Shown piece by piece: positions 28,865 through 36,090 of a DNA stretch of 64,000 bases. The DNA is from Desulfobulbaceae bacterium. Its GTDB lineage: Bacteria > Desulfobacterota > Desulfobulbia > Desulfobulbales > Desulfobulbaceae. The stretch is taken from NCBI GenBank assembly GCA_012744275.1, contig JAAYIE010000003.1:795-64794 (forward strand), read 5' to 3'. Within the stretch, counting starts at the first letter, position 1. The number at the start of each line of letters is the position of its first letter. The notes under the pieces were generated by a model, which had not been told where the DNA came from, did no database searches, and saw only the letters and a program-made list of their open reading frames with translations. A program made the translations under genes and the position numbers.

Positions 28865-29482
28865 TCAACGGTTTGTTTCGGGCAATTTTGGCCGCTGGTA
28901 GCCCTGGCCCAGCACAAAGACCTCTCGGCTTTCCTGACGGGAACTCTGCGGTTTCAGCACCTTGACCGTGGTAAACAGTGCTTTGCACTCCTTAAGGAAG
29001 GCAGGGAAATCCGCCCCTTGAAACACCTTGCAGTACAGAGTGCCATTATCGTGCAGGAGGCGCTGCGCCAGTTCCAGCACCCGGCGACAGAGCCTGAGTG
29101 ACTGCTGATGATCCGCATACTGGCTGCCAGTGGTGGCTGGGGCCATGTCACTGAGCAGCACATGGAAACCAGGCCACTTTTTGTGCAAAACACCAATGAG
29201 TTCCTCAGAAAAGACATCATAACAAAGCCTGTGCATTTCAGCATTGGCTTTTTGCGGCTCCGCTGGGCGCTGCAGATCTACCCCGACGACCACGCCCTTT
29301 GGGCCGACACAACTGGCCGCATACAGGCTCCAACTGCCCGGATGGCAACCCAGGTCCAGCACCCGCTGACCAGGCTTCAAAAAACGGTGCTTAAGCTGGG
29401 CCTCTTCCAACTTGTAGACCGAGCGGGCCGGATAGTTGTCCTTTTTCGCCTTGTGGAAGTAAAAATCTTTTTCCTTGCGCAT
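28865..29482 (-). CDS. rlmE: 23S rRNA (uridine2552-2'-O)-methyltransferase RlmE/FtsJ
   Basis: [36 protein letters not shown] plus the SAM-methyltransferase fold pattern and LSDMAP. Confidence 0.9.
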
Positions 29483-29485
29483 GGT

Positions 29486-31102
29486 TTATTTGCCAACCTT
29501 TTCTTCTTGAACGATTGCAGCCGCCATGCTTTGGGCAAGGCCCAACGCCTCGGCGCGGCTTGTGATCTCGCCTTCCATGCGGGCCAGGTCCACGGCCTCA
29601 AGGATGGTTCTGAACAAGGGCCCTGGGGTCAAGCCAAGCTCTTCGATCAAGTCTCTGCCACCCAAAAGGGGTGGACTGCTCTGCACCGGCAGCACCCGAT
29701 CGTCCCGCACCTGCTGCAAACGTGTGGCCAGTTCCGCCACCTCGTGCTCCATGTTTTCCGGCCGCGACTCTCCTTTGCCAGCCAGAGCATCGGCCTGGGC
29801 CAGCAGCAAGAGGCCCGGTAACTCCTCGCCCACGGCTCGCACCAGCCTGATACAGGCCTTCAAACTCAAATCACCCTGGCGGGCCACGTTGAGCAGGTGA
29901 AAGGGCCGCATGTGCTGGCTAATGAGGAGCGAAATACGCTCGGTCTGCCTGGTGCTCCAACGCAAGCGCTTAGCCAGAGCCTGAACCAGCGCAACGCCAG
30001 CCTGTTCGTGCTGATAAAAGGTGATGCGGCCATCCGGCCCGCTAGCCTGGGCCCAGGTGGCGGGTTTACCCAGATCGTGCAAGAGCGCCGCCCACTTCAG
30101 GATGAGGATGTTGTGCTCATCGCTCAGCCAAGCGCGCATAAGCTGGCCGCAACCCGGGAAACCCTGCTCCGGCTCGGCGATGAGCAGTTCAACCTGGTGC
30201 AGGGCTTCCAAACTGTGACCAAGCACATCAAGATGATGGCTGGCGGGCTGCTGCACGCCTGCGCTCGCAGCCAGTTCTGGCAAAACCTCAAAAAGAAGAC
30301 CATTTGCCTGCATGGCCAGAATGGCCCCATGGCTGCGGGGGGACAGCATAAGCGCATTCAGCTCTGCAGCCACCCGCTCGGCAGCGGAACGTCTGATGAG
30401 CGCATGATCGCGCTGGATGGCCGCACTGGTTGCCGTATCCAGCCTGCAGTCAAGGGTGGCAGCCAGGCGAAAGGCACGCAACATACGCAGGGGATCGCTG
30501 CTAAAGGCCTCGGCATGGGTCATGCGGATGAGGCGCTCTTTGATGTCGGCATAGCCACCACAAGGATCAAGCAGGGGAAGCGCTAGGCCGGTATCCCCAG
30601 CTTGTCCGTCAAGCAGGTTATCCAGAGAAACAGCCAGGGCATTGATGGTAAAATCCCGCAACTGCAGATCTTCTTCAATTGTGTTTGTGCCTTCTCGGAA
30701 GGCAGCCACATCAATCACCAGGCCGCCACTCACCACCCTGGCCACGTCTTCGCCCGCATCCAGAGGCACAAAAGCACCGTTTGTGCATTCAGCGAGCGTT
30801 TGTGCAAAATGCTGCGCGCCCTGGGCTATGGTCAAGTCAATGTCATGCGGTATGCGGCCCAACAGTAGGTCACGCAGACTGCCACCGCTCAGGTACAACT
30901 CCTGCCCGCACTCTCGCCGCAGGATGGCGAGTTCCTTTCGCAACCAAGGTGGCACTATACCATCAAGCTGACTGAGGTAAAGATGATTCAATGTTTTAAT
31001 ACAAGAAGAAGGCTCATGCGGAAAACACCCGCCTATGTCACCTGCAGAGGCCAGGAATAAATCTGTACGCGCCTCCGAAATACACTGCTTTGTAGGATAC
31101 AT
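29486..31102 (-). CDS. tRNA nucleotidyltransferase (CCA-adding)/poly(A) polymerase family protein with HD domain
   Basis: Pol-beta NT head motif GGSLRDLLLGRIPHDIDL, RLDTA..., and HD motif LLHDLGKP. 538 aa. Confidence 0.8.
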   Translation of the reverse strand: MYPTKQCISEARTDLFLASAGDIGGCFPHEPSSCIKTLNHLYLSQLDGIVPPWLRKELAILRRECGQELYLSGGSLRDLLLGRIPHDIDLTIAQGAQHFAQTLAECTNGAFVPLDAGEDVARVVSGGLVIDVAAFREGTNTIEEDLQLRDFTINALAVSLDNLLDGQAGDTGLALPLLDPCGGYADIKERLIRMTHAEAFSSDPLRMLRAFRLAATLDCRLDTATSAAIQRDHALIRRSAAERVAAELNALMLSPRSHGAILAMQANGLLFEVLPELAASAGVQQPASHHLDVLGHSLEALHQVELLIAEPEQGFPGCGQLMRAWLSDEHNILILKWAALLHDLGKPATWAQASGPDGRITFYQHEQAGVALVQALAKRLRWSTRQTERISLLISQHMRPFHLLNVARQGDLSLKACIRLVRAVGEELPGLLLLAQADALAGKGESRPENMEHEVAELATRLQQVRDDRVLPVQSSPPLLGGRDLIEELGLTPGPLFRTILEAVDLARMEGEITSRAEALGLAQSMAAAIVQEEKVGK

Positions 31103-31176
31103 TCATTTTAAACATCTCCTGACAATCCAAATCCAAAGGTTTTTTCTGGGACAAATTTGAGTCTTTATCATGAGTA

Positions 31177-34100
31177 TCAACCGCCCCGACGATTTTCTTC
31201 AAACATATCCACCGGCATTGAATATCGAAGGCGCCAGACCATCTTAATCGGCCTTTCACTCTCATAGCTCACCCGCTCTGCCGGCCCAAGATAGGTGAAG
31301 GGCACCGTGCAGTTATTATACTTTTTCTGGTCGCGAGCAAAAATCAGAATCGTATAGCTTCGCGACTGATGATATATCAAATTCTGACCGTCGTTGTGAT
31401 GCTGGGCCGTGTTAGCCTGTGATTCCCAATGCAAAAGTTCCCGGCTGATTGGATAGTCAGCGTACATGGTGCTAGGCGAAAATTCCTTTTCGGTTTTCTG
31501 AAAAGTAACTAAGAGTACATAAGTCCGCACCTCCACAAAATGCAAAACTCCCACGCCTCGTTGACCAGCACTCGCCAAGGTTGCTGCACCTAAGGCCGCT
31601 AAAATATCTTTACTGCCATAACGGGCATGCAATTCAAGCGGACAGGCAAAGGGTAATTCCGGAAGGATGCCGTTAACCGGTGTCACCATTTCCGCCCAAG
31701 CCAAGACTTCATCGATATCATCGAGCATAGAAGGATTTCGGCTTAGCCGCTGAAAAGACTCTTCCAAAGAAGCTATGCCGAGGGGTGCACCATGGACCGC
31801 CCACAAACGATAGTGGATCGCATTTGCGTATTCACCGGCCAAGATGAGAGCCTTTCCCACCTTTTCCTGCCTGAGTGCATTGACCACACAGCGGAGGCGT
31901 GCCAGCTCCCTAGGCCCGGAAACAAAGGCGGCCCGCACCTGGGCTTTTTTAAGGCGGTCAAGATCGGGGTCAGCAGGTACAGGCGCTAACTGGGCTCGCG
32001 CTTTCCACCCGGTCCAGCTTTCGGCCACCAGCAGCCTTTCCGGCTCGTAGTCGTGGTAGCGCACGAAATTACCAAAGGTGAGTTCCTGCGAAGTCTCGGC
32101 GGTAAATGTCCGCAACCTTTCCGGCACCTGAGTAGCTAAGTTGCGAAGGTTGGTTCTGATGTTCTCAAGAACATACTGCCGGGAAAGCTTGTCCAACTGG
32201 ATCGAGCAGCCCGACGGCAGATGGGGAAAATTGTGCTCCACTTCACGGTCGATAGAAAAACGATGCTTCGGTAACAGGGCCTTCAGTTTGGTGTCCATGC
32301 GATAGCGCCGGTGCACCTGGCCGACGAAATCGAGTACGGTGAGACAATCCTTTCCCGGCGCATGTCGCAAGCCCCGGCCCAGTTGTTGGAGGAAAACGGT
32401 CAGACTCTCCGTGGGGCGCAGAAAGAGCACGGTATTGATTTCCGGCAGGTCAATCCCTTCACTTAACTTATCCACAGTAAACAGGAAGGAGAGCCGACCC
32501 ATCCTCAACTCTTCCAGCATGGCAGCACAACTCGCATGGTCAGTATCAGAGACAAAGGCGTCAGCGGGAATGCCTCGCTCGTTGAACGCCGCTGCCATAA
32601 ACCGAGCATGATTGATGGAAACACAGAACCCCACACCCTTGACTGCCTCTAGGTTGGGTTCATACCGATCCAATGCCCCAAAGATGGCATCAAGCCTTTG
32701 CCTCGCCTGAGGATGGGCGCCGATGTAGACTTTTTCAAGTTCGCCCACATCATATCGGCCATTCCGCCAAAAACGGTCCGCATCAATGACCACTGGATCT
32801 GCTACACCAAAATAATGGAAGGGACAGAGGAGTTTTTCTTCCAGCGCCTCGGGAAGGCGGATTTCGGCAGCAAAACGGTTGCCAAAATCGGTGGCTACAT
32901 TGCCACCATCCATCCGTTCCGGGGTGGCGGTAAGGCCAAGTAAAATTTTCGGGGAAAAGTGGTCGAAAAGCGGTCGATAGCTGGATGCTGGGCCATGATG
33001 AGCCTCATCAACCACGATATAGTCGTAAAATTTATGCCCTACTTGTTCCCATAACCGCCGGCTGGCAAGCATCTGCACTGAGCAAAAAAGATGCTCCAGA
33101 CGTGTGGCAGTAAAGGGACCGACCAGCAACTCACCAAAATTTGCGTTGCGCAATACGTTTCGGAAAGTACTAAGGGCCTGTTGCAAGATTTCTTGACGGT
33201 GAGCAATAAAAAGTAAATTGGCCTGTCGGTTCTTCTGCAAATAAAAACGCTTATAATCAAAGGCAGCAATGACCGTCTTGCCAGTGCCTGTCGCAGCGAT
33301 GACCAAATTTCGAAAGTGCTGGCGGGCTGCCCGCTCTCTCTCCAGGGCTTCGAGTATTCGTTCCTGGAAGGGGTGTGGGCGTAAGTCAAAGAAGACGGCG
33401 GGCGAATTGGCGCCGGCAGCCCGAGCACGGGCGATGGCCTGGCGGAGCGGCACCGCGTCGTGAGGATCGAAAGAAACAAATTCACGGCTGTGCCAATAGG
33501 TAGCAAACTCAGCGGTAAACTTCTCCAGGATATGCGGCGAATCCTGAGCCGTAACCTTAAGATTCCATTCCAAGCCACTGGTCATAGCAGCATGGGACAT
33601 GTTTGCCGAGCCAATATAGCCGGTGGAAAATCCGGACTTTCTCTTAAAATGGTAGGCCTTGGCATGGAGCCTTGTCCTCCCGGTGTCGTAGGAAATTCTG
33701 ATCTCGACGTTGGGTTCTGCTGCTAGCCATTCAATGGCCGGCGCGTCGGATGCCCCCATGTATGAAGTTGTGATGAGCCGGACCGGAACCTTACGTTCCC
33801 GCAACTCTTCAAATCCGGCCCTTAACAACCGCAGTCCAGACCATTTAATGAACGAGACCAGGATATCGACTTCATCCGCCGAACGCATTTCCTCCAGCAG
33901 CTCATGAACCAACTGCGGCTCCCGAGGGGCGCCCGTAAAAAGGCTGCTTTCCACTATAGAAGTCTGAGGCCTGGCAATGCCTGGCCGACTGTAATGAGGA
34001 GGGGTGATCTCCAGCAGAAGGGCCTTTCGTACTGCTACGAGTTTATGCTGTTCCAGGTGCGCCAATCCCGTCTCTTCGACAAGCAGGTCGATTATCCGAT

Positions 34101-34305
34101 TTGCCAAGGACAGCCGCTTTTCTGGCTTATCAACTTCTCGCAGAGTTTGTTCGATAATTTTTGCGACAAAAGCGGTGTAACGGGCCGGCTGTTCCTCTTC
34201 GTCAACTTTACCGAAAATCGTCCGTAATTCAGGAATTTGACCGAGGATATCCTGCCAAGATTTATCGAGCAGGGCGTCGTATATGCCGAATGATGGCTTT
34301 TCCAT
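31177..34305 (-). CDS. PLD-family (HKD) nuclease / SF2 DEAH helicase / DUF3427 fusion protein
   Basis: HKD motif LHAKAYHFKRKSGFSTGYIGSANMS. Helicase motif I AATGTGKT, II VVDEAHH, III GLTATPER, VI QQLGRGLR. The C-terminal ~130 aa match my recollection of DUF3427. The ATG at 34305 overlaps the NUDIX stop (TAATG). Confidence 0.85.
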   Translation of the reverse strand: MEKPSFGIYDALLDKSWQDILGQIPELRTIFGKVDEEEQPARYTAFVAKIIEQTLREVDKPEKRLSLANRIIDLLVEETGLAHLEQHKLVAVRKALLLEITPPHYSRPGIARPQTSIVESSLFTGAPREPQLVHELLEEMRSADEVDILVSFIKWSGLRLLRAGFEELRERKVPVRLITTSYMGASDAPAIEWLAAEPNVEIRISYDTGRTRLHAKAYHFKRKSGFSTGYIGSANMSHAAMTSGLEWNLKVTAQDSPHILEKFTAEFATYWHSREFVSFDPHDAVPLRQAIARARAAGANSPAVFFDLRPHPFQERILEALERERAARQHFRNLVIAATGTGKTVIAAFDYKRFYLQKNRQANLLFIAHRQEILQQALSTFRNVLRNANFGELLVGPFTATRLEHLFCSVQMLASRRLWEQVGHKFYDYIVVDEAHHGPASSYRPLFDHFSPKILLGLTATPERMDGGNVATDFGNRFAAEIRLPEALEEKLLCPFHYFGVADPVVIDADRFWRNGRYDVGELEKVYIGAHPQARQRLDAIFGALDRYEPNLEAVKGVGFCVSINHARFMAAAFNERGIPADAFVSDTDHASCAAMLEELRMGRLSFLFTVDKLSEGIDLPEINTVLFLRPTESLTVFLQQLGRGLRHAPGKDCLTVLDFVGQVHRRYRMDTKLKALLPKHRFSIDREVEHNFPHLPSGCSIQLDKLSRQYVLENIRTNLRNLATQVPERLRTFTAETSQELTFGNFVRYHDYEPERLLVAESWTGWKARAQLAPVPADPDLDRLKKAQVRAAFVSGPRELARLRCVVNALRQEKVGKALILAGEYANAIHYRLWAVHGAPLGIASLEESFQRLSRNPSMLDDIDEVLAWAEMVTPVNGILPELPFACPLELHARYGSKDILAALGAATLASAGQRGVGVLHFVEVRTYVLLVTFQKTEKEFSPSTMYADYPISRELLHWESQANTAQHHNDGQNLIYHQSRSYTILIFARDQKKYNNCTVPFTYLGPAERVSYESERPIKMVWRLRYSMPVDMFEENRRGG

Positions 34306-34724
34306 TAATCCCAAGTCTCATGCCGGTGGCGGCAATAAGAAGCCAAGACTGGCAGATCAGCCTCTGCCCAGTCTACTGTGTGGAGTTTATCCAGAGGGAG
34401 CCATTGCAAGGCTGCATGCTCGAGTAGGCGGGGCTCTTCGTTATTTAAGGAACAGATAAACGGGTACAAGGTCACCGTAAAGAAAGAATAACTGTGCGTA
34501 GATGGGTTGAGCTGGCTGGTAATGATAGCTTTCACTCCCATCTCTTCATGTATTTCTCGGACAATACATCCTTCAGGAGATTCATCCTGTCGAATCTTTC
34601 CGCCGGGAAACTCCCACTTCAGCGGAAGGGTCATAGTTTCGCTGCGTTGAGCAACAAGTACAAGACCGCCCCGTTCAATGATTGCGCAAGCGACGTGAAT
34701 ATGTGGTCTGGTCTCGTCAGGCAT
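34305..34724 (-). CDS. NUDIX hydrolase (MutT/NudG-like (d)NTP pyrophosphohydrolase)
   Basis: Nudix box GGKIRQDESPEGCIVREIHEEMGV, 139 aa. Confidence 0.85.
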   Translation of the reverse strand: MPDETRPHIHVACAIIERGGLVLVAQRSETMTLPLKWEFPGGKIRQDESPEGCIVREIHEEMGVKAIITSQLNPSTHSYSFFTVTLYPFICSLNNEEPRLLEHAALQWLPLDKLHTVDWAEADLPVLASYCRHRHETWD

Positions 34725-35049
34725 ATCCTACCTAAATGTACTGCTGCATTTGTGATCCTTCTAAAAAATAATTATGCGGAAATGTTTGCAGCCTCGCAGC
34801 GTCACGGACAGTAATGCTGCGACACTGCGTAATGAATGTAATAAATGGCAATCCTTAGAGACATAACTCAGGACAGTAGCCGCTGGTTTGGAGGCAAGCT
34901 GCACCCTGAAACGGTCAAAAAAGTTTCCAGACCGATTTGCTTTGTGTACATCTTTGTGGGTTAAAAAGGGAATTTCCTGTTGTCGTAATCCAGGAAGATA
35001 GCTTGGAGGCGAGATAAATCGGCCCTGCCGTGTCTTTCGCCTGCTGCCA

Positions 35050-36090
35050 TCAAACCATCAACTCCTGAACCTGCTCATCGGCAAGCGGATCAAAACGCGC
35101 CTCCTGTACGCCAGTATCCCGCTCAATGCGCACCACACCTGCCGCTGCCCTGCCCTCAACTTTTTTCGCGTAGCGCAGCAGCAGCCCGGCCAGGGTGGCT
35201 TCAAGCTCGTCCAACTGTAACGCAGTCAATTCGGCTGCTGCTCTCCTCCGTAGCAGGCCCACTGGCCCAGGCCGGTCTACCATGTGCAGGAGCCAGTCAT
35301 CCGGCTGACGCAGGGCCATGATCCGCTCGTTATCCTTTTGATCCCGGCCCAGAACAAACCACAGACCCGGCGCAGGTTCAAAATGCCGCCCAAAGAGGAG
35401 CAAGCGGAAATCATCCACCAGGGCAGCACCTTTGGCCTCGGCAAAAATGCCTGGTGAAAAATGGCGAAAACGGGCAGCCAGGTTCACGTCGGCCAGTAAA
35501 CAACCGCCAGCCGGAGCCGGATAATCGTGGATCTGAAAATGCGCGGCCAATTGCTGCTGTTCTGTGCGGCCGCGGCCGGATATACGCAAGAGCTGCTCGC
35601 GCTCAACCAGGCCCTGCAGTTCCGCCTGGGTGGGCAACATGAGCTGAGCGCACAGGGGCCTGAGCAAAATGCCTTCGCAGCCGGATTCGCGCTCAATCAC
35701 CCGCAGGGTATCGCGCCGCTGCGACATGGGCCGCTGCCCCAGCACCTCGCCGGTGATAAGAAAGCTAGCCTGATACTCTAGCATAAGGCTGCGCGCCTGG
35801 CGCAGCATGAAAATTTTGCAGTCAATGCAGGGGTTAAAATGGCGGCCAAAGCCGTGCTGCGGCGCCTTGAGCATGTTGATGAAGTCATGGCTGACATCCA
35901 TAACCTTAACCCGGATGCCGTATTTTTCCTGCACAGCCGCACTGTAGGCCGCAACATCGTCAACATCCGCCTCAAAAAAAGGGGTGATGAATCGCAGGGC
36001 CACCACCTTCACCCCCTGGGCCATCACCACCCGGCAGGCGAGAATGGAATCCAGACCGCCGGAAAAAAGAGCCAGCGCTGTAATACTCAC
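35050..36090 (-). CDS. PP-loop ATP pyrophosphatase (ThiI/LarE-like sulfurtransferase-type, exact function unknown)
   Basis: N-terminal PP-loop ALFSGGLDS and an NPCIDCK Cys pair. 346 aa. The GTG start overlaps the recN stop (GTGA). Confidence 0.65.
   Translation of the reverse strand: MSITALALFSGGLDSILACRVVMAQGVKVVALRFITPFFEADVDDVAAYSAAVQEKYGIRVKVMDVSHDFINMLKAPQHGFGRHFNPCIDCKIFMLRQARSLMLEYQASFLITGEVLGQRPMSQRRDTLRVIERESGCEGILLRPLCAQLMLPTQAELQGLVEREQLLRISGRGRTEQQQLAAHFQIHDYPAPAGGCLLADVNLAARFRHFSPGIFAEAKGAALVDDFRLLLFGRHFEPAPGLWFVLGRDQKDNERIMALRQPDDWLLHMVDRPGPVGLLRRRAAAELTALQLDELEATLAGLLLRYAKKVEGRAAAGVVRIERDTGVQEARFDPLADEQVQELMV

What the first reader, a model, noticed from the sequence alone, without database searches (positions are those of the whole stretch)
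31177..34724. Translationally coupled NUDIX hydrolase + PLD-nuclease/SF2-helicase/DUF3427 protein in a lower-GC islet: candidate stand-alone defence module
A MutT-like NUDIX gene ends in TAATG, which overlaps the start of a 1042-aa protein. That protein combines a single HKD (NgoFVII/BfiI-like) nuclease motif, a DEAH helicase core and a C-terminal DUF3427 domain of unknown function.

By eye, this 3.5-kb pair and its flanking spacers (31103-31176 and 34725-35049) are clearly more A/T-rich than the surrounding housekeeping genes (cca, PP-loop gene, recN). That is consistent with horizontal insertion.

A nuclease plus translocase plus putative recognition domain is the logic of an ATP-dependent restriction-like enzyme. 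A coupled NUDIX could deplete or sanitise (modified) dNTPs or remove a nucleotide signal. I know of no described defence system defined by this exact pair. That statement is from memory and was not checked against a database.
Basis: partly seen in the sequence, partly recalled or inferred. Interest (0 to 1): 0.62.

Follow-up and report, generated by a model that had tools for sequence, protein, structure and literature searches.

The report
SauUSI-type restriction enzyme with NUDIX partner
This gene pair is a mobile copy of an already known bacterial defence module, a SauUSI-family enzyme that cuts methylated foreign DNA, together with its usual small NUDIX partner gene, whose role is still untested but is probably to destroy methylated or hydroxymethylated dCTP.

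Summary
On the minus strand a 139-aa NUDIX gene (34305-34724) ends in TAATG, overlapping the start of a 1042-aa gene (31177-34305). That protein has a PLD/HKD nuclease, an SF2 DEAH ATPase and a C-terminal DUF3427 domain. The pair lies in the lowest-GC 3.9 kb of the window (0.514 vs 0.560), a modest dip.

The pair is not new. The large protein is a full-length homologue of the Type IV restriction enzyme SauUSI (PDB 7CLG, profile E=2e-100; PADLOC mREase_IV E=6.5e-193). DUF3427 is SauUSI's SRA-like 5mC/5hmC reader. The NUDIX matches PADLOC candidate PDC-S07, and its best PDB match is the S. aureus NUDIX encoded just upstream of sauUSI. Xu et al. reported this linkage in 2011; a 2012 deletion did not abolish restriction.

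In my survey, 32 of 68 close orthologue loci carry the NUDIX, almost always with overlapping stop and start codons. The two genes co-diverge, and the pair sits in unrelated contexts.

The open question is the NUDIX function. Its closest characterised relative (3GWY) hydrolyses 5-methyl- and 5-hydroxymethyl-dCTP. I infer that it sanitises modified dCTP.

Separately, a (GA)4/(GA)5 frameshift switches the enzyme gene on or off among otherwise identical natural genomes.

The parts
34305..34724 (-). NUDIX hydrolase gene (139 aa), orthologue of the SauUSI-linked NUDIX; PADLOC PDC-S07
   Evidence: Pfam NUDIX 1.2e-17 and NUDIX_4 4.4e-16. PADLOC PDC-S07 E=1.1e-45 over 8-133 of the protein. Best PDB match is 5X1X, E=1.7e-29, which is the S. 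aureus NUDIX encoded immediately upstream of sauUSI.
34533..34601 (-). Nudix box, G42-x5-E48-x7-R56-E57-I58-x-E60-E61-x-G63-V64
   Evidence: Read directly from the translation; coordinates computed.
34356..34367 (-). A-E-A-D motif. Asp123 occupies the base-recognition position, where NudG has D118 and MutT has N119
   Evidence: Alignment. Asp is found in the window protein, 5X1X, 3GWY, NudG and six SauUSI-linked orthologues; Asn is found only in MutT.
34303..34307 (-). TAATG stop/start overlap joining the two genes
   Evidence: In orthologue loci the junction is an ATGA/GTGA 4-bp overlap in 19 of 31, TAATG in 2 of 31, and otherwise ranges from a 31-nt overlap to a 6-nt gap.
31177..34305 (-). 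SauUSI-family Type IV restriction enzyme gene (1042 aa)
   Evidence: PADLOC mREase_IV PDLC03659 E=6.5e-193, residues 111-1035 against model positions 15-936 of 945. The family profile matches 7CLG (SauUSI) at E=2e-100 in one stretch, 131-1012 against 39-917.
33916..34305 (-). N-terminal extension, residues 1-130. It is predicted helical, conserved within this clade, absent from SauUSI, and matches no known family
   Evidence: Pairwise alignment to SauUSI. Invariant columns in alignment A1. Pfam at E<=10 gives only a sub-threshold chance hit.
33493..33885 (-). PLD/HKD nuclease domain, residues 141-271. H214 and K216 are at 33658-33666; G232-S-A-N235 is at 33601-33612
   Evidence: Pfam PLDc_2 4.4e-09 and RE_NgoFVII 1.8e-07. 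H214 and K216 align with SauUSI H119 and K121. These residues are invariant in 26 homologues.
33334..33342 (-). (GA)4 dinucleotide tract in codons 322-324. A (GA)5 allele in other natural samples shifts the frame from residue 325
32296..33381 (-). SF2 translocase/ATPase core, residues 309-670. Motifs: Walker A GTGKT 340-344, DEAH 433-436, TATPER 459-464, QQLGRGLR 640-647
   Evidence: Pfam ResIII 3e-34 and Helicase_C 4e-10. Motifs are identical or nearly identical to SauUSI.
31645..32295 (-). Helical coupler region between the ATPase and the recognition domain, residues about 671-887
   Evidence: Collinear with SauUSI residues about 573-805 in the profile match. SauUSI domain borders are from PMC7913695. 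Sequence similarity here is low.
31195..31644 (-). DUF3427 target-recognition domain (SRA-like), residues 888-1037. D950 and W960 correspond to SauUSI D858 and W868
   Evidence: Pfam DUF3427 2e-20 and 4.2e-21 on the isolated C-terminus. The SRA fold of SauUSI's TRD is from PMC7913695.
34725..35049 (-). 325-bp A/T-richer upstream spacer (GC 0.455), the presumed promoter region of the two-gene operon
   Evidence: Composition. No sigma-70 consensus match was found there, so the promoter is inferred, not shown.
31103..31176 (-). 74-bp downstream spacer (GC 0.324) before cca
   Evidence: No terminator-like site was found in it.

Best explanation
What it is. The pair is a two-gene, horizontally mobile Type IV (modification-dependent) restriction module of the SauUSI family.

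Shown by homology. The 1042-aa protein has the full SauUSI architecture, in this order:
- a PLD/HKD nuclease;
- an SF2 ATP-driven translocase;
- a helical coupler;
- an SRA-like DUF3427 reader.
All catalytic motifs are intact.

Inferred from SauUSI biochemistry. That binding switches on ATP hydrolysis. The enzyme dimerises through its nuclease domains, translocates along the DNA and cuts it. The host is safe because its own DNA lacks the mark, and accordingly no methyltransferase gene is attached.

The NUDIX, shown. The upstream gene is translationally coupled and is the orthologue of the NUDIX that precedes sauUSI in S. aureus. It is an accessory, not a requirement for cutting.

The NUDIX, inferred (about 50% likely). 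It is a pyrophosphatase for 5-substituted dCTP, i.e. 5-methyl-dCTP and 5-hydroxymethyl-dCTP. That activity would keep modified C out of the host's own DNA, for example after salvage of nucleotides from degraded methylated DNA, and so prevent self-restriction. It could also drain the modified-dCTP pool of phages that build hmC or 5mC DNA.

The window's allele. The window carries the intact ON allele of the enzyme gene. An otherwise identical OFF allele, frameshifted in a (GA) repeat, circulates in nature.
For: Large protein.
- PADLOC mREase_IV, E=6.5e-193, nearly end to end.
- 7CLG (SauUSI): E=3e-81 with the single sequence. With the family profile, E=2e-100 in one collinear stretch, 131-1012 against 39-917.
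- H214/K216, GSxN, GTGKT, DEAH, TATPER and QQLGRGLR are conserved. TRD pocket residues D950 and W960 are conserved and invariant in 26 homologues.
- No methyltransferase is found among the neighbouring genes.

Pair.
- The NUDIX's best PDB match is 5X1X, E=1.7e-29. That is the S. aureus NUDIX whose gene ends 1 nt before the 953-aa SauUSI gene.
- The NUDIX lies upstream in 32 of 68 orthologue loci, with overlapping stop and start codons in most.
- It is the only broadly conserved neighbour.
- NUDIX and helicase distances co-vary: Mantel r=0.68, 0 of 5000 permutations reach it.
- Literature: the linkage in at least 60 genomes (PMC3141236); PDC-S07 co-localised with RM type IV in 23 of 23 cases in S. 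suis.
- The S. aureus nudix deletion did not yield the transformable phenotype of the sauUSI mutant, which the authors read as the NUDIX not being required for SauUSI activity (PMC3312211).

NUDIX substrate.
- The second-best PDB match is 3GWY (E=7e-20). It hydrolyses 5-Me-dCTP, 5-hm-dCTP and 5-Me-CTP at kcat/Km of 4-7x10^6 M^-1 s^-1, with far lower activity on canonical NTPs (PMC5158307).
- 16 of 34 relatives of 3GWY at 52-66% identity have a SauUSI-like gene directly downstream.
- Asp123 sits where the C-specific enzymes NudG and 3GWY have Asp and MutT has Asn. The LDWAEAD-P motif is shared with 3GWY.
- E. coli MutT is a much weaker match (2.5e-10) than the C-specific enzymes.

Mobility.
- The islet is the lowest-GC stretch of the window.
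- None of the 80 orthologue loci shares the window's flanking genes.
- The orthologues at 84% and 76% identity lie in unrelated contexts, one of them a defence island.
- Identity of 70% or more is found across different phyla.
Against: - No biochemistry exists for this protein or for any SauUSI-linked NUDIX. The window NUDIX is only 36% identical to 3GWY and 31% to NudG.
- 3GWY itself is not next to a SauUSI-like gene in B. fragilis (0 of 39 loci), so its activity may serve general house-cleaning.
- About half of the close orthologues of the enzyme lack the NUDIX. The S. aureus nudix deletion was viable, and its only recorded result (data not shown) concerned transformability. Any protective role is therefore conditional.
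- Three of the five mapped TRD pocket residues differ from SauUSI (Y831 to H922, F841 to L932, I842 to V933). M829 falls in an alignment gap. The modification and sequence context recognised could therefore differ.
- Overall identity to SauUSI is only 28.6%, and a 130-aa N-terminal extension has no counterpart.
- The structure prediction was too poor to confirm folds (pLDDT 43.5).
- No empty-site comparison was available to prove insertion, and no flanking repeats were found.
Confidence: 0.75

Rival explanations
1. The NUDIX is itself the effector of a stand-alone defence (PADLOC candidate PDC-S07). It depletes a phage's modified dNTP pool, or the canonical dCTP pool, on its own. Its linkage to the Type IV enzyme reflects complementary layers of defence, not protection of the host from self-restriction.
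For: - PADLOC lists the family as a single-gene candidate, and it is detected alone in some genomes.
- The characterised relative 3GWY and many of its relatives occur without a SauUSI-like neighbour.
- The enzyme occurs without the NUDIX in 36 of 68 loci.
- 3GWY has near-diffusion-limited activity on 5-hm-dCTP, the precursor used by T-even-like phages.
Against: - Stop/start overlap with the enzyme gene is the rule where both are present, and the two co-diverge. That argues for a stoichiometric or functional tie and against mere co-location.
- No phage-resistance phenotype for PDC-S07 was found in the searched literature.
- The two roles are not mutually exclusive.
Confidence: 0.2
2. The NUDIX is an ordinary MutT-type 8-oxo-dGTPase or a general house-cleaning enzyme, with no functional connection to restriction. 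Databases annotate it this way ('8-oxo-dGTP diphosphatase').
For: - Source annotations.
- NCBIfam MutT models match at 1e-19, below their cut-offs.
- The S. aureus nudix deletion did not change the restriction phenotype.
Against: - The linkage recurs across Bacillota, Desulfobacterota, Nitrospirota, Chlorobiota, Bacteroidota-type contigs and other groups, with overlapping reading frames and co-divergence.
- The pair moves together into unrelated loci.
- Asp replaces MutT's Asn119 at the base-reading position. From my own knowledge of the MutT literature, Asn119 is the residue that reads 8-oxoguanine.
- E. coli MutT is a weaker match than the cytosine-specific enzymes.
Confidence: 0.1
3. The large protein is a SauUSI-like machine, but it reads a different mark or sequence context than SauUSI. 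Candidates are glucosyl-hmC, N4-methylcytosine, 6mA or other hypermodified bases. The NUDIX would then be tuned to the matching nucleotide.
For: - Only 28.6% identity to SauUSI.
- Three of the five mapped pocket residues differ, and M829 falls in an alignment gap.
- There is an extra 130-aa N-terminal region of unknown function.
- DUF3427 fusion proteins show varied behaviour in the literature (PMC6765204).
Against: - D950 and W960, the counterparts of SauUSI D858 and W868, are invariant.
- The PADLOC model for methyl-directed Type IV enzymes fits end to end.
- The partner NUDIX clade is closest to enzymes that act on 5-methyl- and 5-hydroxymethyl-cytosine nucleotides.
Confidence: 0.15
4. The large protein is a DNA-repair or recombination helicase, as some sources annotate it ('RadD', 'helicase'), and not a defence enzyme.
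For: - One source names a homologue 'Putative DNA repair helicase RadD'.
- RadD structures match the ATPase core at E=2e-17.
Against: - The RadD similarity is confined to the SF2 core, residues 306-670.
- The PLD nuclease and the DUF3427 reader, and the end-to-end match to SauUSI, are not RadD features.
- The distribution is patchy and mobile, and the gene occurs in defence islands.
Confidence: 0.03

Closest known systems
SauUSI (Staphylococcus aureus Type IV restriction enzyme; PDB 7CLG) with its upstream NUDIX gene (SAUSA300_2432; PDB 5X1X)
   Same: - Same gene order and same strand, with near-abutting or overlapping reading frames: TAATATG in S. aureus, TAATG here.
- Same domain order: PLD nuclease, SF2 ATPase, coupler, DUF3427/SRA reader.
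- Same catalytic motifs.
- No companion methyltransferase.
- The NUDIX partners are each other's best structural-database matches.

   Different: - Only 28.6% identity overall.
- The window protein has an N-terminal extension about 90 aa longer than SauUSI's, with no known domain.
- The coupler is strongly diverged. Pfam DUF8090, recorded for SauUSI, was not detected here.
- Three of the five mapped pocket residues are substituted.
- The host is a Desulfobulbaceae-like anaerobe from digesters and wastewater, not a Gram-positive pathogen.

PADLOC models mREase_IV (PDLC03659) and PDC-S07 (PDLC04899)
   Same: Both window proteins match these models essentially end to end, at E=6.5e-193 and E=1.1e-45. 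PDC-S07 and RM type IV were co-localised in 23 of 23 cases in S. suis.
   Different: PADLOC treats the two as separate entries, a Type IV enzyme and a single-gene candidate, not as one two-gene system. The first 110 residues of the window enzyme lie outside the model.
Bacteroides fragilis Q5LBB1 (PDB 3GWY) and E. coli NudG/Orf135: NUDIX pyrophosphatases for 5-substituted (d)CTP
   Same: - MutT-like NUDIX_4 fold family.
- Intact Nudix box.
- Asp at the base-reading position.
- The LDWAEAD-P motif is shared with 3GWY.
- Relatives of 3GWY at 52-58% identity are SauUSI-linked.

   Different: - 36% identity to 3GWY and 31% to NudG.
- Neither 3GWY nor NudG is next to a restriction gene in its own genome.
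- The substrate of the window protein has not been measured.
Phase-variable restriction-modification genes (simple-sequence contingency loci of Haemophilus, Neisseria and Helicobacter)
   Same: A short tandem repeat inside the reading frame differs by one unit between otherwise identical genomes, and that difference toggles the frame.
   Different: - The tract is only 4-5 dinucleotide units.
- It is not conserved in orthologues.
- Switching within a population was not observable from contigs.
- It may be a single or recurrent loss-of-function mutation, like the premature stop in sauUSI of S. aureus RN4220.

Membership tests
SauUSI-family Type IV restriction enzyme | N-terminal PLD-family nuclease with a single HxK...GSxN (HKD) motif | tested here: met
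   Pfam PLDc_2 and RE_NgoFVII. H214 and K216 align with SauUSI H119 and K121; GSAN at 232-235. These residues are invariant in 26 homologues.
SauUSI-family Type IV restriction enzyme | Central SF2 helicase-like ATPase with motifs I, II, III and VI | tested here: met
   GTGKT 340-344, DEAH 433-436, TATPER 459-464, QQLGRGLR 640-647. Pfam ResIII 3e-34 and Helicase_C 4e-10.
SauUSI-family Type IV restriction enzyme | C-terminal DUF3427 (SRA-like) target-recognition domain | tested here: met
   Pfam DUF3427 2e-20 at residues 888-1037. The profile match to 7CLG runs through the TRD to chain residue 917.
SauUSI-family Type IV restriction enzyme | 5mC-binding pocket residues of SauUSI (M829, Y831, F841, I842, D858, W868) | tested here: inconclusive
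   D858 and W868 are kept as D950 and W960. Y831 becomes H922, F841 becomes L932 and I842 becomes V933. M829 falls in an alignment gap. The residue list is from PMC7913695.
SauUSI-family Type IV restriction enzyme | End-to-end collinear homology with the solved enzyme | tested here: met
   The family profile matches 7CLG at E=2e-100 in a single stretch, 131-1012 against 39-917 of 953.
SauUSI-family Type IV restriction enzyme | No cognate methyltransferase gene attached | tested here: met
   Neighbouring genes are recN, a ThiI-like PP-loop gene, cca and rlmE. RlmE is an rRNA methyltransferase, not a DNA methyltransferase. See the Pfam table for the same locus.
SauUSI-family Type IV restriction enzyme | ATP-dependent cleavage only of DNA that carries 5mC or 5hmC | not testable with these tools
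   This needs enzyme assays or in vivo restriction tests.
SauUSI-family Type IV restriction enzyme | Dimer held together by the nuclease domains | not testable with these tools
   Only a monomer was predicted, and the model was unusable (mean pLDDT 43.5).
SauUSI + NUDIX two-gene module | A MutT-like NUDIX gene immediately upstream on the same strand, orthologous to SAUSA300_2432 | tested here: met
   TAATG overlap. The best PDB match, 5X1X, is the S. aureus sauUSI-linked NUDIX. 32 of 68 orthologue loci have the same arrangement.
PADLOC PDC-S07 | Full-length match to the PDC-S07 profile | tested here: met
   E=1.1e-45, residues 8-133 against model positions 6-131 of 135.
5-substituted-dCTP pyrophosphatase (NudG / 3GWY type) | Intact Nudix box, GX5EX7REUXEEXGU | tested here: met
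   G42...V64.
5-substituted-dCTP pyrophosphatase (NudG / 3GWY type) | Asp, not MutT's Asn, at the base-recognition position near the C-terminus | tested here: met
   Asp123 aligns with NudG D118, the corresponding Asp of 3GWY, and MutT N119. The functional importance of these residues is from my own knowledge of the NudG and MutT literature and was not re-checked here.
5-substituted-dCTP pyrophosphatase (NudG / 3GWY type) | Membership of the same clade as a characterised enzyme | tested here: inconclusive
   In the NJ tree the window clade (bootstrap 99) is separate from the 3GWY clade. The node joining them to the exclusion of NudG did not reach 60% support. The NCBIfam NudG model scores 82.5 bits, below its cut-off of 156.
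5-substituted-dCTP pyrophosphatase (NudG / 3GWY type) | Kinetic preference for 5-Me-dCTP or 5-hm-dCTP | not testable with these tools
   This needs purified protein.
Phase-variable (contingency) restriction gene | An in-frame simple-sequence repeat whose unit number differs between otherwise identical genomes | tested here: met
   (GA)4 against (GA)5, with 0 substitutions in 21 kb. Both alleles occur in at least 3 and at least 4 independent studies respectively.
Phase-variable (contingency) restriction gene | A long repeat tract maintained by selection and conserved among relatives | tested here: not met
   Orthologues have runs of 1-3 units at this position.
Phase-variable (contingency) restriction gene | Mixed ON and OFF reads within one population | not testable with these tools
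   Only assembled contigs were available for these runs, and contigs drop minority variants.

The most novel reading that the evidence does not exclude
The SauUSI-linked NUDIX, here and in S. aureus, is a dedicated 5-methyl-/5-hydroxymethyl-dCTP pyrophosphatase that acts as the self-protection arm of a Type IV restriction system. A classical R-M system protects the host by marking its own DNA. This module would instead keep the host's nucleotide pool free of the mark its nuclease hunts, for example after salvage of nucleotides from destroyed methylated DNA. At the same time it would starve phages that build modified-cytosine DNA. I found no statement of this idea in the searched literature. 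A secondary novel reading is that the (GA)n tract works as an ON/OFF switch for the enzyme gene.
Probability: 0.45. Interest if true: 0.55.

Novelty: new member of a known kind. Interest (0 to 1): 0.3.

Why it matters
As an annotation the finding is routine. It moves a protein labelled 'DUF3427 domain-containing protein / helicase' and one labelled '8-oxo-dGTP diphosphatase' into a well-characterised defence family.

The useful residue is a 15-year-old loose end. SauUSI-type enzymes very often carry a NUDIX gene fused to their start codon, and nobody has explained why. Three observations make a specific hypothesis directly testable with simple enzyme kinetics and a feeding or autoimmunity assay:
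- The nearest characterised relative is a near-diffusion-limited 5-Me/5-hm-dCTPase.
- The base-reading residue is the cytosine-type Asp.
- The two genes co-diverge.

If the hypothesis is true, it would add 'nucleotide-pool sanitation' as a self/non-self safeguard for modification-dependent restriction. It would also bear on S. aureus genetics, where SauUSI is the main barrier to transformation.

The ON/OFF frameshift among clonal environmental genomes is a natural example of the cost-benefit trade-off of Type IV restriction.

Tried and rejected
- AlphaFold2 on the full-length protein. I used 26 homologues, all at least 70% identical. Mean pLDDT was 43.5 and pTM 0.27, too poor for fold searches. 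No fold search was run, and fold-level claims rest on sequence profiles and the published 7CLG structure.
- Sigma-70 promoter and intrinsic terminator scan over 30950-35250. It found no promoter in the upstream spacer and no terminator in the downstream spacer, and the counts were no higher than in shuffled sequence. It was uninformative.
- Search for direct or inverted repeats bracketing the islet, as att-like or target-site duplications. Only short chance-level matches turned up, none at the borders.
- Pfam at E<=10 on the N-terminal 140 aa. The only hit was a sub-threshold LonB lid match, treated as chance.
- Test of whether the characterised enzyme 3GWY is itself SauUSI-linked in B. fragilis. 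It is not, in 0 of 39 loci. The 'direct biochemical proof' version of the argument was therefore dropped and replaced by the weaker clade-level argument.
- Literature search for the PDB 5X1X entry. No paper was found, so the identity of the protein was established by sequence instead.
- Empty-site comparison, i.e. a relative with cca directly next to the PP-loop gene. Insertion rests on composition and non-synteny only.
- Conserved phase-variation device. Rejected, because orthologues lack the (GA)4 tract.
- RadD-type repair helicase. Considered and rejected; see the rival explanations.

Full report
OBSERVATION

On the minus strand, a 139-aa ORF (34305-34724, ATG start) ends in GAT TAA.

Pfam places these domains in the large protein: PLDc_2/RE_NgoFVII at residues 141-271, ResIII/DEAD at 309-464, Helicase_C at 559-648 and DUF3427 at 888-1037. 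The small protein matches NUDIX and NUDIX_4.

The flanking genes are housekeeping genes. In the gene table of an identical contig they are recN, a ThiI-like PP-loop gene, cca and rlmE.

The islet 31103-35049 has GC 0.514, against 0.560 for the window. Windows of the same size have mean 0.561 and SD 0.021, and the islet is the lowest such stretch in the 64 kb. GC3 is 0.557 and 0.493 for the two genes, against a gene mean of 0.633 (SD 0.055).

WHAT THE LARGE PROTEIN IS

- PADLOC's model for Type IV methyl-directed restriction enzymes (PDLC03659) matches at E=6.5e-193 over residues 111-1035, which is model positions 15-936 of 945. A second model, 953 positions long, matches at 4e-80.
- The best solved structure is 7CLG, the S. 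aureus Type IV enzyme SauUSI, at E=3e-81.
- A profile built from 26 homologues matches 7CLG at E=2e-100 in one collinear stretch, 131-1012 against 39-917 of 953. The homology therefore runs through the nuclease, the ATPase, the coupler and the recognition domain.
- A pairwise alignment gives 28.6% identity. It shows the HxK (H214, K216) and GSxN elements of the PLD site, Walker A GTGKT (340-344), DEAH (433-436), TATPER and QQLGRGLR.
- These residues are invariant in the 26 homologues.

The SauUSI crystal-structure paper shows that the DUF3427 region is an SRA-fold reader that flips out 5mC. It lists the pocket residues M829, Y831, F841, I842, D858 and W868 (PMC7913695). In the window protein, D858 and W868 are kept as D950 and W960. 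Y831, F841 and I842 become H922, L932 and V933.

The first 130 residues form a conserved, predicted-helical extension that SauUSI lacks. It matches no Pfam family.

A full-length AlphaFold model was unusable, with mean pLDDT 43.5, because every available homologue was at least 70% identical. I ran no fold searches.

WHAT THE SMALL PROTEIN IS

It matches the PADLOC phage-defence candidate PDC-S07 at E=1.1e-45. Its Nudix box is intact.

Its best PDB match is 5X1X, at E=1.7e-29. I traced 5X1X to a 130-aa S. aureus protein, P0241, at 99% identity. That gene ends one nucleotide before the 953-aa SauUSI gene. The window pair and the S. aureus pair are therefore the same two-gene module.

THE PAIRING IS ALREADY IN THE LITERATURE

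- Xu et al. 2011 noted a conserved MutT/NUDIX gene (SAUSA300_2432) linked to sauUSI. They found at least 60 SauUSI-like genes with such a neighbour. They guessed it breaks down pyrophosphate and said its function remains to be determined (PMC3141236).
- Monk et al. 2012 deleted the gene in strain Newman. [quoted passage not shown]
- A 2025 S. suis genomics preprint found PDC-S07 and Type IV RM co-localised in 23 of 23 cases.
- Searches for SauUSI with nudix, and for related term sets, returned no paper that tests or proposes a specific substrate.

Its functional logic was sound.

MY OWN NEIGHBOURHOOD SURVEY

A scan of one genome per species returned 80 loci that encode orthologues at 52-77% identity. 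They come from Desulfobacterota, Nitrospirota, Chlorobiota, Verrucomicrobiota, Acidobacteriota, Fibrobacterota, Halomonas and other groups.

- The NUDIX orthologue lies directly upstream on the same strand in 32 loci. It is absent from 36 loci that have enough upstream sequence.
- Where it is present, the junction is a 4-bp ATGA/GTGA overlap in 19 of 31 resolved cases and TAATG in 2. The rest range from a 31-nt overlap to a 6-nt gap.
- Clustering of all flanking ORFs found no other broadly conserved partner. The next most frequent neighbours were an HNH protein (9 loci), Fic, NERD, an IS200-like transposase, HigAB-like pairs and DUF1016, which is the typical content of variable or defence regions.
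- Pairwise distances of NUDIX and enzyme correlate across 28 loci (Mantel r=0.68; none of 5000 permutations reached it).
- The NUDIX state agrees with that of the nearest enzyme relative in 51 of 62 cases.

The pair is therefore inherited and transferred as a unit, with several losses or gains.

MOBILITY

- None of the 80 loci carries the window's flanking genes.
- The closest orthologues on long contigs, at 84% and 76% identity, keep the NUDIX but lie in unrelated places. One is beside nif regulatory genes. The other is in an island with two Fic genes, an HNH protein carrying a ScoMcrA-like DNA-binding domain, NERD, PIN and HicB.
- More than 8000 homologues exist. The top 120 are at least 70% identical although they come from different phyla.
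- I found no flanking repeats and could not obtain an empty site. Insertion is therefore supported by composition and non-synteny, but not directly proven.

LIKELY FUNCTION OF THE NUDIX (INFERENCE)

- The second-best PDB match, 3GWY (B. fragilis Q5LBB1, E=7e-20), was screened against 74 substrates. It hydrolyses 5-Me-CTP, 5-Me-dCTP and 5-hydroxymethyl-dCTP with kcat/Km of 4-7x10^6 M^-1 s^-1, and has much lower activity on canonical NTPs (PMC5158307).
- Other strong matches include M. smegmatis MutT2 (5ZRC) and E. coli NudG (2RRK). E. coli MutT is much weaker.
- I aligned the window protein with NudG and MutT taken from the MG1655 record. The window protein, 5X1X, 3GWY, NudG and six SauUSI-linked orthologues all have Asp where MutT has Asn119. 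The window protein also shares the LDWAEAD-P motif with 3GWY. That N119 reads 8-oxoguanine, and that NudG D118 matters for cytosine nucleotides, is from my own knowledge of that literature.
- I then asked whether 3GWY itself is SauUSI-linked. It is not, in 0 of 39 B. fragilis-type loci. However, 16 of 34 assessable relatives at 52-66% identity have a SauUSI-like gene starting 11-61 nt after the end of the NUDIX match.
- A neighbour-joining tree gives three well-supported clades: the window type (99), the Firmicute type including the S. aureus protein (100), and a clade containing 3GWY in which linked and unlinked members interleave. The node joining them to the exclusion of NudG is not well supported.

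SauUSI reads exactly 5mC and 5hmC in DNA. The simplest reading is therefore that the partner removes 5-methyl- and 5-hydroxymethyl-dCTP.

That activity would stop the polymerase from writing the enzyme's target into host DNA. It could also drain the precursor pool of phages with modified cytosine.

This fits the S. aureus deletion result, since an accessory is not needed for cutting. It also fits the fact that half the orthologues do without it.

It remains unproven. Identity to 3GWY is 36%, no linked NUDIX has been assayed, and the only recorded result for the S. aureus deletion (data not shown) concerned transformability. I put this reading at about 50%, or 45% for the narrower claim that the NUDIX is the module's dedicated self-protection arm.

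AN UNEXPECTED EXTRA

Other public assemblies of the same organism encode an identical PP-loop protein, but gene callers split the enzyme gene into a 422-aa and a 631-aa gene.

- The only difference from the window is one extra GA in a (GA)4 tract at 33334-33342. This holds over 4.1 kb and over 21 kb, with zero substitutions.
- The extra unit shifts the frame from residue 325. Walker A is then absent from both predicted products, so this allele should be null.
- Contigs from eight metagenomic runs show both alleles. The in-frame allele is in four runs from three studies. The frameshifted allele is in four runs from four studies: compost, soil, wastewater and one unspecified.
- Orthologues have at most three GA units at this site. 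The tract is therefore not a conserved switch.
- Within-sample mixtures cannot be judged from contigs.
- Two of 30 orthologue loci also have truncated enzyme ORFs.

This looks like slippage-driven loss, possibly reversible, of a costly Type IV enzyme. It is comparable to the sauUSI stop codon of S. aureus RN4220.

VERDICT

The feature is real. It is a defence module, and it is a new member of a known kind: the SauUSI plus NUDIX module. Interest is low to moderate. What remains open, and is now sharply testable, is the substrate and role of the NUDIX partner.

Noticed in passing
window 33334-33342 (minus strand, codons 322-324 of the enzyme gene); L081 12749-12750: (GA)4 in the window against (GA)5 in other assemblies of the same organism. 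It is the only difference in 21 kb, with 0 substitutions. The extra unit shifts the frame at residue 325 and removes Walker A from both resulting ORFs. Both alleles occur in several independent metagenome studies.
   Followed up: partly
L031 (enzyme ORF 490 aa) and L067 (752 aa): Two further orthologue loci have prematurely ending enzyme ORFs next to an intact NUDIX. This suggests that inactivation of this Type IV gene recurs in other lineages. Assembly errors were not excluded.
   Followed up: no
L058 2585-9119 and L071 3027-10288: tblastn hits of the enzyme span about twice the gene length in these loci. This suggests a second, tandem SauUSI-like paralogue next to the first.
   Followed up: no
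window 33916-34305 (residues 1-130 of the enzyme): A conserved, predicted-helical N-terminal extension that is absent from SauUSI and lies outside the PADLOC model. No Pfam family matches it, and its role is unknown.
   Followed up: partly
L090-L127 (B. fragilis-type contigs carrying the 3GWY gene): The biochemically characterised 5-Me/5-hm-dCTP pyrophosphatase is an orphan, with no SauUSI-like gene within 6 kb, while about half of its 52-66%-identical relatives are SauUSI-linked. The context of the B. fragilis gene was only listed as ORFs and was not annotated.
   Followed up: partly
L172 5607-7601 and eight other loci (cluster): An HNH nuclease with a ScoMcrA-like DNA-binding domain, probably another modification-dependent enzyme, and a NERD-domain protein recur next to the NUDIX-enzyme pair. 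This suggests islands that stack several modified-DNA sensors.
   Followed up: no
L082 11953-12074 against window 30880-31001: The end of this ENA scaffold repeats about 120 bp of the cca 5' region in inverted orientation. This is most likely an assembly artefact at a contig end.
   Followed up: no
window 36087-36090 and 29482-29486: The housekeeping genes around the islet are tightly packed. The recN stop overlaps the PP-loop gene start by 4 bp, and cca and rlmE are 3 bp apart. The islet, by contrast, is set off by 325-bp and 74-bp A/T-rich spacers.
   Followed up: no
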